From positions 9,798,001 to 9,862,000 of the forward strand of contig NC_087245.1 of the NCBI RefSeq assembly GCF_037042905.1: DNA of 64,000 nt, written 5' to 3'. The notes beneath the pieces were generated by a model. It saw nothing but the letters and a program-made list of their open reading frames with translations, was not told the origin of the DNA and did not search any database. Below are positions 8,701-23,700 of the stretch, one piece after another. The DNA comes from Lytechinus pictus. Its lineage: Eukaryota. The translations under genes were made by a program, and so were the position numbers. The stretch's first letter is position 1. Each line of letters opens with the position of its first letter.

Positions 8701-11700
8701 AGTAGGCGAGTGCATTTTATTTAAGGCACTTGCCAGCTTAAAACGAAACTAGAATTTCAATTTCATTTTATTTTACCAGCGTTTTGTCCCATTGAAGACA
8801 CCGTTAGAAAAAAAAATTGCATCGAAATAAAAAAAAATCGCCAAAAATCCAAAACCCGAGTGATTTCGGACGCGACCCGAGTGATTTCGAACGCGAACGC
8901 GACCCGAGTGATTATAATAAGCCATCAAACCCACCACGTGCACATGCCAAAAGGTAGTGTAAAGAATTTTGCGCTAGCCCGTTGAGTCTGGGCGGTTCCA
9001 GTTCTCGGCTATGCCACAAAACTATCTTGTATTGTGTGAATGCTTGCGCGCATTGCGTAATTCACTGATATTGTTGAGTGGGTGGGTATACAAAAAGATC
9101 GATACTGAGGCGTGACTTAACTTTTCCCAGAACTGATTCGGAGAAATGATGTACCAAGTAAGCTATTATAACAAAATGGGTGTACTTTGGAATGGTTATT
9201 GGGCGTGGCTGTAATCACATATTATAATGAGCGAACTTAGCTGAGCTCAGCTTCACATAAAAATACTTATAAAAGATGTCCCGCCGATCGTTCATTGACC
9301 TGTGATCTACGAGAATTATTTTCCTTTGCGACTGCTCGGAAGATGCGTCATTCGTTTATCTTTCTAATAAAAATCACTCATTTTATTGTTAAGCAGTTAA
9401 ACCTCAAAACCCTTTAAAAGCATGTTCCAAACGATCGCGCATGTCGACTAATTCCATTCCTAAACATTCGTCTTTGTGACTTTGTCAGGAAGATGCGCGC
9501 GACCGCGAACAAAATGTTGATGTATTCCTTTGTTTTTAAACATCGCCGATTCGATTTTCGATTCGATTTCGATTTTAGAAGCTTAACTGCCGATCCGATT
9601 TTCGATCTGATTTTTGATCCGATTTACAACCGAACTAAACATCTCTTTATCACAACATAGTACGCAGTCTGACTATCCTTTTTATAAAAACAAAACTTGG
9701 GAAATTTCATTATGCTCCTGGCAAATCTTTGAAATGTGTCGGTTACTCATGTTACATGATTTGGACATGCATAAAATAAAAAGTGGACATAAGTGAAAAG
9801 TGTCCTCATGCAAGGCTTTTATGAAAGTTGATTATATCCATTTCAAAGAAGAATATTAGGGAGACAAATTTGTATATAATTAAAAAAATAAAGAACACAT
9901 GGTTTTTACTAGGGGTGCAGATAAAGTGGTTACTCACGTTACGGTTCAGATGGGCTATATGTACAAAGACACATTGAGCTCATGTCCACCAACCGATGGA
10001 ATTGCCCTGAAGCTTTTCTTCTAACCCAAAAGCTAGGCTAGTATAAATTCATTATATGAAAAGAAAAATTGGAGTTAGAGGGTGCCCGATTAAGTAGAAT
10101 TAATTTTCAATTTCTATTATTTATACTATATGTAGAGGTGCTGGTCCAAAAATTGGGATTACCCCAGAAAACAAGGATATCCTCATAAAACAAGACAAAT
10201 CATGTCTTGATAAATTGAGATTGTCCTTGTTTATTGGGACATATTTTTTTTTTTCACTTAACCAAGCGGGACATAGACGGGAATGGAGAGTGCTAAAAAT
10301 AGATTCAGTGACCTTAATTCTCCCCCAGTTCACTGTCTAATTTTGACAACTTGCCGTCTTCCAGTAATCTTGTTATGAAACCTGATATGTTTACATTGAC
10401 TAGCGCACTTGATTTATGTCGCCACTTGACAGGTGAATGAACTTTCCTTGATTTCTTGTGTGGAAAAATCTTTGATAACTGAGACAGTCCCTGTAAACTG
10501 GGACGATCCCAATTTTCTGACCAGCGCCTCTACTGACTAATGTAATGGCTCTATCATTAATTATTTTTGGAAATTTGGTCTTTATCTAAATTCTAAAGTT
10601 AAAAGGGTTTTGGCCATATTAGCTAATATGCCCAGCCGCCATTAATACCGCTCATCGAAGTAAAAAATCCGGGACGGGCGCAAAACGCACACATATGAAC
10701 ACACGGGTACAGTGCTTCGCGAAGCGAAGCACTGTGTGTGTTCATATGTGTGCGTTTTGCGCCCGTCCCGGATTTTTTTTTGTTGGTAAAGCTTTACTCG
10801 GTATATATAAATCCTAATTTCACTGCAACGAGTGAATAGGTGAGCGTGGCGCAGTGCATAGTACTCTGGCATCCAAGCCTTCGTGGTTCAATCCTTAACA
10901 TGGTTCTTTTTTTTTAGGGGATCGGGGATGTGAAGTATTTCGGTGCTATTTCTAAAGGTCGACATTCGATCGTTTTTATTGCGTATTTCATGAACTTCAA
11001 CAACTTTTCTATATTGCTTAAATCCGTATTTTCAGGAAATTTGTCACTCTATACTAGCACCTTAATATGCCCAAAAGAATTTTGAATAAAATATGCCTTT
11101 CCTACTTTTCTCTTTTCGCTCTATCCCCCCTCAGACATTTCAATCCCCCTGTCCGCTGCTTATATTCCCCCAAAAGAAAACCCCTTTTCTCGCCCTCCGG
11201 GCCAACACGAATTATTAGAATCTTGGCTTGTTCATCACTCTATACTAGCACCTTAATATGCCCAACAACTTTTCAATATTGCTTTATTCCGTATTTTCAT
11301 GAAGCTTGTCACTCTATACTAGCACCTTAATATGCCCAACAACTTTTATATATTGCTTTATTCCGTATTTTCATGAAATTTGTCACTCTATACTAGCACC
11401 TTAATATGCCCAAAAGAATTTTGAATAAAATATGCCTTTCCTACTTTTCTCTTTTCGCTCTATCCCCCCTCAGACATTTCAATCCCCCTGTCCGCTGCTT
11501 ATATACCCCCAAAAGAAAACCCCTTTTCTCGCCCTCCGGGCCAACACGAATTATGAGAATCTTGGCTTGTTCATCACTCTATACTAGCACCTTAATATGC
11601 CCAATAACTTTTCAATATTGCTTAAATCCGTATTTTCAGGAAATTTGTCACTCTATACTAGCACCTTAATATGCCCAACAACTTTTATATATTGCTTTAT

Positions 11701-20700: not shown

Positions 20701-23700
20701 AGCTAACATTGACAAAATCCATTTATGATAGGGTGACGATGGAAGAGTAGAAAAGATACGCAAAAATGTTGGACATAATAAAATGCCCTATATAGAGTTT
20801 AACAATTACGGAATAAAGCAATATTGCGAAGGAGGAAAATTGAGAAACAACATAAAAATACAGCATAAAGTGAAAGTTCATGAATAAATAAAATCATGAA
20901 CAGATGAAAACAAGAAAAAAAAAGACACAGAGACACGTAATAAAAGCAATATACACCATAAAGAATGAAGACTATAAACAAATATAACAAATTTATTTAT
21001 TTATTTAAATATCTTTATACAGGATAACAAGCTCAGATTCACTGTTTTTAAACATGGTCCTGTTAAAATGAAATAACAATATATACAAAAAGATAAAAGT
21101 GTAACTTAGGTTCTATACAAATAGTGAATGAATTCGATATCAATAACATTAAAATCAGAATCATCACTAGTAAAACAATTGTATAAAAATAACATATTCA
21201 ATTTTTGAGGAATCAATGAAATGAGAACATTTCTCTCTTGCTTTATTCCATATTTCAAGAAATTTGGGCCTCCATGTATACTAGCAACTTAATATGCCCA
21301 CCAACTTTTCTATATTGCTTTATTCCGTATATTTATGAAGTTTGTCACTCTATACTAGCACCTTAATATACCCACAGAAAATTAAATTGTGTTCAAAATT
21401 TTCTATATCGCTTTATTCCGTATTTTGATAAGTTTGTCACTTTATACCAGCACCTTAATATGCCAACATTTCTGTATTGCTTTATTCTGTATATTTTTTA
21501 TGCAGTCACTCTATACTGCATCAAATTGATACGGACTAAAGCAATAGAGAATTAAGAATCTTGGCTCGATCATTCATTAGTACTTTATGCCCACAAACTT
21601 TTCTTAATTACTTTATTCCGTATTTTGGTGAAGCTTAATTGTCACTCTTTATTAGCACCTAAATAATTATGCCCCCCCCCCCCCCAAAAAAAAAAAATCT
21701 ATTATTGCGTTTCAACTTTACTATATCGGTTTTTACGTATTTTGTTGAAGATTTTATACTCTCACCCGAATATGCCTCCCATTTTTGTTGCCTTATATAC
21801 TTTTCCTTCGCTCTACCCCCCGCCCAGACAGACATTTCAAACCCAGAACACCACTTTTCCCGCCCTCCGGTCAATAGTAATTATTAGAATCTCGGTTGAT
21901 TCGTCCCTATGCTCACCAAGTTTTCCGTTTTCTCTTTAAGCTTTATCCCGTATTTAGTGAAGTTTGTCACTATACTAACACCTTAATCAATTTGCCCATC
22001 AAAAAAATCAAATTGCGTTTTAACATATGTTTTTCCTTTATTCCGTATTTGTAGCTAATCACCTTTGGAATATACATCTGTCCCATTAAAAGTCCGTCTT
22101 GCTCTTTCTTGAGGAAAATAAAAATAAGCTAACATTGACAAAATCCATTTATGATAGGGTGACGATGGAAGAGTAGAAAAGATACGCAAAAATGTTGGAC
22201 ATAATAAAATGCCCTATATAGAGTTTAACAATTACGGAATAAAGCAATAACGCGAAGGAGGAAAATTGAGAAACAACATAAAAATACAGCATAAAGTGAA
22301 AGTTCATGAATATATAAAATCATGCATAAAAGTTTATGCATTATGTGCGAGATGCGGCAAGACACATCTTGATGTCAGTGGGGCACGATTGACATGGAGG
22401 GCGCAACTTTTCGCAGAGGATTAGAGTGAGGATTGTTTGAGAGGATTAGAGTGAAGAAAGAAAGGTTTAGTGAGAGAGATGATTGATGAGCTTGCCGGGC
22501 GAAAAAAAAATGAGGAAATTTGTTGACTTGGAATATTTTGGCAGAAGGAGTGAAGGAGGTTAAAATTCAATATAACGGGGCATTTATATATAACCAAAAA
22601 GGATAACGCAAAAGTGAGTATATGAAATTATTTACAATTTCTTGTGCATACTTTTTTTTTCAATTTTGCCGTGCCTACCAAAATGCCACATTTATTTGAA
22701 AATATCCGAGAAGATCGTATATTGGCGGACCGATAGCGACATGATGTTTGTTGTAGAGGGGATAACTTGGGAGTTTAGAATGAAAAAAAAAGGAAGCTAT
22801 ATATATGTTAAAATAAAGTTTTAGGCCTACACGCCGACTACGAACATCAAGTGCAAACTAGTTGCGTGACTTTTTTGTTCCATGTTTAGGCCCCCTGTTG
22901 CCTAAACAGAGAAATGTTCCGGGTGTTATTTCAGGTGACTCAATATACTCAATAGTAAACGCACATCGTGTTAAAATACATAGCGATAATATAAACGAAG
23001 TGAAAAAAATAACAAAATCCTGTTTGGAATTATTGGTACCATTATCTATAGCCCCTGGATCCTGAAATATATATATTTTCTAATTAATTAAATCACTGAT
23101 CGTTGATTCCCTGGCGCTGGCCTGCTAACTGCCGCCGGGGAAACCTCCGTACGTCTTGAGCGCTAAACCAGTTTCGGCTGTCAGCTCATCTCATGTGGCG
23201 TGCTGACTACGATGCTGGACTGCAGATCAAAAGGTACGAGATCGATCCCCATCAAGGACAGAAAAAATCAGGTTAGTAAAACAGTGTTATGTAATATAAT
23301 ATGAAATGAAATGTACAGTATGATGAATAAGTTGGATGGAATGAATGAATGAGGAATAAATCCACCCACCATGTATCATACAGAAAACACAAAAAGAAAA
23401 CGAAAATACGATGCACATAGTATTTTATTGAAAACCCGCCGATTTCATATATTTTAGTGCCCCTTCACCCCCCCCCCCCAATCCCTAATCCCCGCCCCTC
23501 TCTCGCACAGCTGAAATACCCATTAACACGCCACTTCACTGAACGCCGATATCCCGCTGACTGAGCTTTGTTATTGTGCGGTCATGTGTGACACCGGTCG
23601 CACATGCTCTTACGCACGTCTAGCGATAAGAATTTTCACTCGGCTGAGCAGTTTTAATGGCGCTTGGGCACAATAGCGAATTTGGCCAGGGTTTTTTTTT

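What the first reader, a model, noticed from the sequence alone, without database searches (positions are those of the whole stretch)
10612..23687. 13-kb coding-free DNA transposon that carries satellites built from its own terminal motif
An exact 8-bp TSD (AGGGTTTT) and ~57-bp GGCC-ended TIRs bracket 13.1 kb inside UBA5 intron 1. The TIR contains TAGC-TAATATGCCCA, and the satellite anchor is TAGCACCTTAATATGCCCA. The 339-bp and 1.4-kb arrays therefore look like amplified subterminal (putative transposase-binding) motifs, i.e. satellite DNA arising inside a mobile vector. A solo left-end remnant occurs at ~52903-52932. The superfamily is unresolved: GG ends with an 8-bp TSD fit Merlin, and Zisupton also makes 8-bp TSDs.
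Basis: partly seen in the sequence, partly recalled or inferred. Interest (0 to 1): 0.7.

Follow-up and report, generated by a model that had tools for sequence, protein, structure and literature searches.

The report
Repeat-stuffed, four-layer nested Merlin-like transposon
This is a real, gene-less jumping-DNA insertion in an intron of the UBA5 gene, likely of the Merlin group, whose 13 kb consist of an 8-kb core filled with tandem repeats (their unit possibly begun from a 23-base piece of one end) plus three other insertions nested inside it; it is a tidy example of a known kind, not a new one.

Summary
In detail: exact 8-bp TSD, 57-bp TIRs (44/57 identical), inside UBA5 intron 1, no transposase trace. 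Public contigs confirm the termini: 4 right-end contigs in 2 of 4 runs stop at GGCC with other flanks, and a related organism lacks the right end at this site (empty allele likely, shown indirectly). The core is 8.1 kb, 79% tandem array. The TIR–repeat likeness covers only 19-20 of 23 bases of a 74-bp monomer, left TIR only; it beats chance with a free gap (0 of 588 shuffles) but is marginal under ordinary gap costs (P 0.03-0.06). Arrays are one-directional, absent near the right end, and low-depth in the relative, so 'amplified binding sites' and 'satellite vector' are unproven. Merlin fits best (GG ends, 8-bp TSD, imperfect TIRs, internal arrays, subterminal hairpin) but membership is not shown. 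The scan noted a like-built element elsewhere in this genome (e1-9807568); Tetris and zebrafish Merlins are published precedents. Interest is low to moderate.

The parts
10604..10611 (+). Left copy of the 8-bp target-site duplication AGGGTTTT
10612..10668 (+). Left TIR, 57 bp, starts GGCC; its first 23 bases are two inverted half-sites
   Evidence: contigs of run X7 begin at about 10612 (depth bins)
10662..10778 (.). Subterminal palindrome, 117 bp, GCGAAGC-type loop; present in family copies of organism B
   Evidence: (z -18.9, 0 of 200 shuffles)
10779..10997 (+). Unique left interior; a contig of run X7 matches 10749-10968 with 7 differences in 220
10998..13561 (+). Left array: higher-order units of 339, 339, 339, 339, 266, 338, 264, 338 bp made of 74-bp monomers and a 117-bp spacer; the first four units 96.5-98.5% alike
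13490..13896 (+). Left part of the first 1.4-kb unit, cut by the nested insertion (93-97% to the later units)
13897..18818 (.). Nested element, 4,922 bp, 15-bp TIRs CAACCAAAAAATTAC, 10-bp TSD with one mismatch (13887-13896 and 18819-18828); superfamily not determined (a 10-bp TSD recalls Mutator-like elements; recalled)
14093..16792 (.). Second-level nested foldback, 2,700 bp, arms 99.1% alike, TATGG..CCATA ends, 6-bp TSD ACCCTG: IS3EU-like
   Evidence: IS3EU features from PMC12730594 passage
14570..14608 (.). Third-level 39-bp CA..TG near-palindrome with 8-bp TSD CGACCAAT in the left arm only; likely an excision scar or mini-element of a P-like transposon
18819..22324 (+). Right array: rest of the first 1.4-kb unit, a full unit (19820-21225) and a partial one (21226-22324), 97-98% alike; each holds about 7 diverged monomers and unique AT-rich DNA
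22325..23630 (+). Unique right interior without monomers; relatives in organism B (about 93%) and organism A (about 98%)
23631..23687 (-). Right TIR
23688..23695 (+). Right copy of the TSD
52903..52932 (+). Lone end of the same or a sister family: left-TIR tip with 3 extra bases between the half-sites

Best explanation
The stretch is a gene-less TIR element flanked by an exact 8-bp duplication, likely moved into UBA5 intron 1 by a borrowed, probably Merlin-type transposase, and then likely swollen in steps by tandem duplication and by three nested insertions. Shown: TSD, TIRs, other copies ending at the same GGCC, the nesting, the hierarchy of repeats. Inferred: the monomer likely began as a duplication that took in the tip of the left TIR (19-20 of 23 bases, with 4 bases added between the half-sites) plus about 50 other bases; an old round gave monomers and spacers now roughly 70-87% alike, shared as a short cluster by family copies in other organisms; recent unequal exchange or slippage gave the 339-bp and 1.4-kb higher-order units (96-98%); the 4.9-kb element landed in the first 1.4-kb unit after that unit had been duplicated. 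The arrays are most likely passive filler, not required binding sites.
For: TSD and TIRs beyond chance. Right ends with foreign flanks: 1 contig in X7, 2 in X2 stopping at 23687 and 1 variant end in X2; none in X8 or X1 (17 of 24 loose-end rows shown). Left ends: X7 depth is 0 at 10570-10593, 17 at 10594-10617 and 68 at 10618-10641, as expected if contigs start at 10612. Empty site: an 874-base X2 contig (depth 13.5) lies on the right flank from 23694 with 68 earlier letters that do not match the TIR; one X2 contig of the same depth 13.5 covers the left flank from about 10564 and is not among the 3 contigs at 10657. Merlin: GG ends, 8-9-bp TSD, imperfect TIRs and internal tandem repeats (PMC8101967 passages; Merlin-2_DR about 13.6 kb with 79-bp arrays); Merlin-like proteins in Strongylocentrotus; Ptychodera Merlin loci start GGCACCATTT or GGCCAAATTT and carry a subterminal palindrome with a GCGAAGCG loop. 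Monomer-TIR likeness: 19 of 23, 0 of 1500 shuffles and 0 of 1500 real 74-mers; with gap and window free over both TIRs 20 of 23, 0 of 588 and 0 of 467; the gap lies where related ends also vary (+3 at 52903, +9 in an X2 end). Order of nesting: units 2 and 3 hold the target site without the insertion.
Against: No transposase was found, and no second full copy with both ends and its own TSD could be seen (no genome held). The empty site rests on equal depth figures, not on a displayed bridging contig: a high-copy repeat at 10330-10536 crowded the tables (21 of 294 loose-end rows and 28 of 1069 pieces shown). The best Merlin end seen matches 9 of the first 11 bases, short of Repbase's 10 of 11 rule. 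With ordinary gap costs the TIR-monomer match has P 0.03 (shuffles) and 0.06 (real 57-mers), and the right TIR shows none (P 0.57); the free-gap tests were designed after seeing the alignment. Whether arrays grew before or after the last jump cannot be ordered: array and family divergence are both about 2-3%.
Confidence: 0.6

Rival explanations
1. Same anatomy, but the mobilising enzyme is not Merlin: Zisupton/KDZ, an hAT with unusual ends, or an unclassified 8-bp-TSD family.
For: Zisupton and most hATs make 8-bp TSDs (PMC12730594 passages). No transposase ties the element to any group, and the Repbase terminal rule is not met for Merlin.
Against: GG ends, imperfect TIRs, internal arrays and a subterminal hairpin all occur in Merlins. 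Zisupton end sequences could not be seen, so this rival is untested rather than weakened. Earlier notes on this genome name Merlin 11 times and Zisupton once, unproven (leads only).
Confidence: 0.3
2. One reading: the arrays are amplified transposase-binding sites that help the long element move, and the element spreads satellite DNA.
For: Free-gap likeness of monomer and left TIR tip; 33 matches of TAATATGCCCA with up to 1 mismatch against 1.9 expected; precedent in Galileo and Tetris (PMC4079207 passages); head-to-tail monomers in a contig of organism B and a multi-monomer context in organism A.
Against: One orientation, no copies near or like the right TIR; column conservation over 9 monomers is 0.83-0.89 in the TIR-like part against 0.82-0.86 elsewhere; monomer depth 12.1 against single-copy 13.5 and TIR 80-121 in X2, 46 against 30 and about 290 in X6 (the tool warns that depth is no copy number).
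Confidence: 0.15
3. The monomer is unrelated to the TIR; the shared 11-mer is chance and the arrays come from captured or internal DNA.
For: Affine-gap P 0.03-0.06, longest common word P 0.025, before correcting for two TIRs and two arrays; a profile of monomers finds the TIR only at E 8.3; two thirds of the monomer has no counterpart in the TIR.
Against: 0 of 588 shuffles and 0 of 467 real 74-mers reach 20 of 23 in the conservative free-gap test. This rival concerns only the origin of the monomer; the transposon reading stands either way.
Confidence: 0.35
4. The two ends belong to unrelated insertions or the TSD is chance.
For: TIRs are only 77% alike; the TSD is T-rich; left and right interiors were not seen on one contig, and runs X7 and X1 each showed only one interior.
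Against: 0 hits in six shuffled windows; both ends occur in organism B; highly imperfect TIRs are on record for Merlin; likely empty site in B.
Confidence: 0.04

Closest known systems
Merlin superfamily (IS1595/IS1016-related), e.g. Merlin-2_DR, Merlin-N5_DR and the Symbiodinium families Sy.m_F1, Sy.k_F1 (PMC8101967: passages, S1 Table part 1 of 2, S2 Appendix parts 24 and 45 of 55 cut at 400 letters)
   Same: GG ends, 8-bp TSD, imperfect TIRs in the 24-462-bp range, internal tandem repeats, length of 8-14 kb; subterminal palindrome with GCGAAGCG loop as in Ptychodera Merlin loci.
   Different: No transposase; 9 of 11 terminal bases at best; arrays run one way through the element, whereas the listed array coordinates of Merlin-2_DR and Merlin-N5_DR lie near both ends.
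Tetris foldback element and TIR-220 repeats, Drosophila virilis (PMC4079207: passages)
   Same: Internal tandem unit shares a short stretch with the terminal domain (37 bp at about 80% there; 23 bp here) and expands inside a non-autonomous element.
   Different: In Tetris the repeats are part of both long TIRs and form long satellite-like arrays shown by FISH; here TIRs are short, arrays are internal and one-directional, and no large or free array was shown.
IS3EU superfamily (for the nested 14093-16792 only; PMC12730594 passage)
   Same: 6-bp TSD, TAYGG..CCRTA ends, TIRs over 30 bp.
   Different: Non-coding, almost wholly palindromic; the passage describes fungal members.
DTC84 tandem-repeat MITE of the clam Donax trunculus (PMC3879986: abstract only)
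   Same: Non-autonomous element acting as a cassette for a variable internal array.
   Different: DTC84 has a putative AA duplication, up to five core repeats and a microsatellite; here an 8-bp TSD and two higher-order arrays.
Zisupton (PMC12730594 and PMC9297572 passages; original paper not held)
   Same: 8-bp TSD, TIRs.
   Different: End sequences not available for comparison; no KDZ domain found.

Membership tests
Merlin | Termini 5'-GG | tested here: met
   Both ends start GGCC; other copies end at the same base
Merlin | 8- or 9-bp TSD | tested here: met
   Exact 8 bp for this copy; TSDs of other copies not seen
Merlin | TIR of 24-462 bp, may be imperfect | tested here: met
   57 bp, 44 identical; range
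Merlin | DDE_Tnp_IS1595 transposase in the element or an autonomous partner | tested here: inconclusive
   None in 69 ORFs of this copy; no partner could be sought without a genome
Merlin | Repbase rule for non-autonomous elements: same TSD length and at most 1 mismatch over bases 1-11 to a known member | tested here: not met
   Best end seen (2 Ptychodera loci sharing one flank) gives 9 of 11; only 400-letter heads of one paper's sequences could be checked, so it is filed as Merlin-like, not as a member
Zisupton/KDZ | 8-bp TSD | tested here: met
Zisupton/KDZ | KDZ transposase (PF18758) | tested here: inconclusive
   No Pfam hit in 69 ORFs; spliced or decayed remnants under 45 aa would be missed
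Zisupton/KDZ | Terminal sequence like known Zisuptons | not testable with these tools
   Original paper not held; searches gave no end sequences
Foldback element with satellite arms (Tetris, TU type) | Tandem repeats inside long TIRs, mirrored at both ends | tested here: not met
   All anchors on one strand; TIRs 57 bp
Satellite DNA | Large, high-copy arrays beyond the element | tested here: inconclusive
   Arrays total 6.4 kb here; monomer near single-copy depth in organism B; own genome not held
IS3EU (nested 14093-16792) | 6-bp TSD and TAYGG..CCRTA termini | tested here: met
IS3EU (nested 14093-16792) | IS3-like transposase | tested here: inconclusive
   Non-coding copy; partner not sought

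The most novel reading that the evidence does not exclude
A still-mobile Merlin-type vehicle that makes repeat monomers from its own transposase-binding tip, uses them as extra binding sites to move multi-kilobase gene-less copies, carries three other transposons along as one package, and has recently crossed between species (about 98% identity of its non-coding right interior in organism A, where neither host flank was laid and the host's commonest repeat is scarce).
Probability: 0.08. Interest if true: 0.55.

Novelty: new member of a known kind. Interest (0 to 1): 0.27.

Why it matters
If the monomer really starts from the TIR tip, the locus is a compact record of how a tandem repeat is born inside a transposon and climbs from monomer to higher-order units, with nested insertions that order the steps. 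That route is already published (Tetris, Merlins with tandem repeats) and was noted elsewhere in this genome, so the gain is one more clean case and a new repeat family to annotate, plus four TSD-bounded layers (8, 10, 6, 8 bp) in one intron. It would matter more if the monomers were shown to bind transposase or if the family moved between species.

Tried and rejected
No own genome is held, so the paired-end search could not be run. Metagenome scans: the tight TIR pattern gave 0 loci; a loose pattern gave 5: L001, L002 and L004 match inside long prokaryote-type ORFs, L003 and L005 are animal-like non-coding DNA without a partner end or further likeness; all rejected as chance. Viral contigs: 0. 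Rfam: 12 hits, all far below gathering scores and mostly on palindromes. No tRNA. Look-ups of earlier findings by sequence gave 0 for both ends and the 1.4-kb unit, but also 0 for a very high-copy repeat used as control, so they say nothing on copy number. Missing cover of the right interior in X7 and X8 and of the left end and flanks in X1 is not used as evidence of absence (the tool says holes prove nothing). The TIR tips do not fold better than shuffles, so no hairpin function is claimed for them. A Helentron/DINE-like reading of palindrome plus arrays was considered and set aside because of the 8-bp TSD and paired TIRs (family features recalled). The partner search for the lone end used a flank shifted by one base and was repeated correctly (none found). 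Seven paper searches showed no description of this family; Repbase and Dfam are not searchable here and supplement sequences were cut at 400 letters, so it may already be catalogued. PMC5753468 (passages) gave no terminal sequences.
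Full report
Observation. The ends are as described. AGGGTTTT stands at 10604-10611 and 23688-23695, and the 57-bp ends match at 44 positions. A scan of 85,626 pairs of exact 8-mers found 37 with inverted flanks of at least 21/30; apart from artefacts of larger palindromes, microsatellites and arrays, two are clean elements (this one and 5864-8923), and six shuffled windows gave none. The element lies in the 22.7-kb first intron of UBA5. That the host is a sea urchin comes from earlier notes on this genome, not from a test of mine. 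No transposase family was found in 69 of 117 stop-to-stop ORFs of 45 aa or more (array duplicates left out); Rfam and ARAGORN gave nothing meaningful.

Anatomy. It is four layers. A 4,922-bp element (13897-18818, 15-bp TIRs, 10-bp TSD with one mismatch) interrupts a repeat monomer; inside it is a 2,700-bp foldback (14093-16792, arms 99.1% alike, TATGG..CCATA ends, TSD ACCCTG), which fits the IS3EU features given in PMC12730594 (passage); inside its left arm is a 39-bp CA..TG piece with TSD CGACCAAT. Without these the core is 8,144 bp, 6,395 of them (79%) in arrays. The left array has eight higher-order units of 264-339 bp built from 74-bp monomers and a 117-bp spacer. The right array has about 2.8 units of 1.4 kb, each with about seven diverged monomers. 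The spacer of the 339-bp unit also has a counterpart of about 70% in the 1.4-kb unit, so the two arrays share an older duplication. Units 2 and 3 of the 1.4-kb array hold the target site without the insertion, so the insertion came after the first duplication (inference).

Is it a family that moved? No genome is held. Ten public runs hold part of 22400-26400; five were laid. At the right junction (X7, X8, X1, X2), one X7 contig and two X2 contigs stop at the GGCC end and go on with other flanks, and a fourth (X2) is a variant end with nine extra bases; X8 and X1 showed none; 17 of 24 loose-end rows were displayed. X2 (organism B; flank contig with 43 differences and 11 gaps in 383 bases) holds the right interior at about 93%, depth 49.7. 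An 874-base X2 contig of depth 13.5 lies on the right flank from 23694 with 68 earlier letters that do not match the TIR, so this allele lacks the right end there. At the left junction (X2, X6, X1, X7) a very common repeat at 10330-10536 crowded the tables (21 of 294 loose ends, 28 of 1069 pieces shown), so the bridging piece was not displayed; but one X2 contig of the same depth 13.5 covers the left flank from about 10564 and is absent from the three contigs at 10657. I read this as the empty site with about 85% odds. In X7 depth rises from 0 to 68 at about 10612 and a left-interior contig is 97% identical. No second copy with both ends and its own TSD was seen.

Do the arrays come from the TIR? 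With ordinary gap costs the left TIR matches the 339-bp unit with P 0.03 (2000 shuffles) and 0.06 (5000 real 57-mers); the right TIR does not match (P 0.57), nor does either match the 1.4-kb unit. The tip, however, is two inverted half-sites, and related ends vary between them (+3 at 52903, +9 in X2). Allowing a free gap there, the monomer matches 19 of 23 bases; 0 of 1500 shuffles and 0 of 1500 real 74-mers did. Freeing gap and window over both TIRs gives 20 of 23 against 0 of 588 and 0 of 467. These tests were built after seeing the alignment. I put common origin at about 60%. Function as extra binding sites is less likely: all anchors face one way, none lies in the 1.3 kb beside the right TIR, and the TIR-like columns are about as conserved across nine monomers (0.83-0.89) as the rest (0.82-0.86). 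In organism B the first monomer stands at depth 12.1 against 13.5 single-copy and 80-121 for the TIRs in X2, and 46 against 30 and about 290 in X6, though one contig has monomers head to tail. Depth is no copy number, but this argues for a short ancestral cluster and against large arrays in most B copies. 'Satellite' is generous for 6.4 kb inside one element.

Superfamily. PMC8101967 (passages) defines Merlin by GG ends, TIRs of 24-462 bp and 8-9-bp TSDs, reports highly imperfect TIRs and internal tandem repeats, and suggests Merlins spread proto-satellites; its S1 Table (part 1 of 2) lists Merlin-2_DR with coordinates up to about 13.6 kb and 79-bp arrays; Strongylocentrotus has Merlin-like proteins. 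In part 24 of its S2 Appendix (heads of 400 letters), 9 of 21 named Ptychodera records show a shared start G[GA]CA[CT]C..TTT with different flanks, 3 show a subterminal palindrome with a GCGAAG-type loop like 10662-10778, and 2 that share one flank start GGCCAAATTTT, 9 of 11 to our right end; part 45 (Saccoglossus) showed nothing comparable. Repbase asks for at most one mismatch in 11 (PMC4455052 passage), so membership is not met; Merlin-like, about 60%. Zisupton makes 8-bp TSDs, but its ends could not be seen.

Earlier notes. e1-9807568 describes a 7.3-kb non-coding Merlin-like element in this genome with a hierarchical array sharing a motif with its own TIR; I could not compare sequences, so it may be a sister or the same family. 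Several notes report satellite-laden foldbacks. They are leads, not support.

Unexplained. Run X1 (organism A) holds 22458-22996 and 23014-23352 with 6 and 8 differences and a monomer in 1.4-kb-type context, but no flank, no left end and only three contigs of the host's commonest repeat. Horizontal transfer is one reading; trace DNA in a mixed sample is at least as likely.

Verdict. Real, non-autonomous, probably Merlin-like; core 8.1 kb; arrays probably seeded in part from the left tip and probably passive. Known kind (Tetris, PMC4079207 passages; DTC84, PMC3879986 abstract). Seven searches showed no description of this family, but Repbase and Dfam were out of reach. Interest 0.27.

Noticed in passing
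window 5864-8923: A second GG-ended element with an exact 8-bp TSD (ATCAAACC) and about 440-bp TIRs (94.6%) in the same intron, holding another repeat; its ends are unlike this family's. Merlin-like by ends and TSD.
   Followed up: partly
window 14093-16792: Young 2.7-kb IS3EU-like foldback with 42-bp palindromic sub-repeats; arms 99.1% alike.
   Followed up: partly
window 14570-14608: 39-bp CA..TG near-palindrome with 8-bp TSD in one arm only, like the P-type scars noted elsewhere in this genome.
   Followed up: partly
window 13897-18818: CAACC..GGTTG element with a 10-bp TSD and AAAGAGCCCYGGAAA motifs in the same orientation near both ends; superfamily open.
   Followed up: partly
window 22458-23352, run X1: About 98% identity in organism A without host flanks or abundant host repeat: possible horizontal transfer or trace DNA.
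   Followed up: partly
window 10330-10536: Very high-copy interspersed repeat ending near 10535, 75 bp left of the insertion; it likely extends left to about 10100.
   Followed up: no
window 1917-3790 and 6304-8357: Several copies of a roughly 450-bp inverted-repeat family, one inside 5864-8923.
   Followed up: no
window 9632-10012, 37532-37996, 50988-51789: Three copies (91-96%) of another interspersed repeat.
   Followed up: no
window 49577-49999, 51961-52341, 59428-59983: Three imperfect palindromes of 380-560 bp, MITE-like.
   Followed up: no
window 23832, runs X7 and X8: Both runs have a 930-base contig identical to the flank that stops at 23832; neither covers the right interior. Cause unknown.
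   Followed up: no
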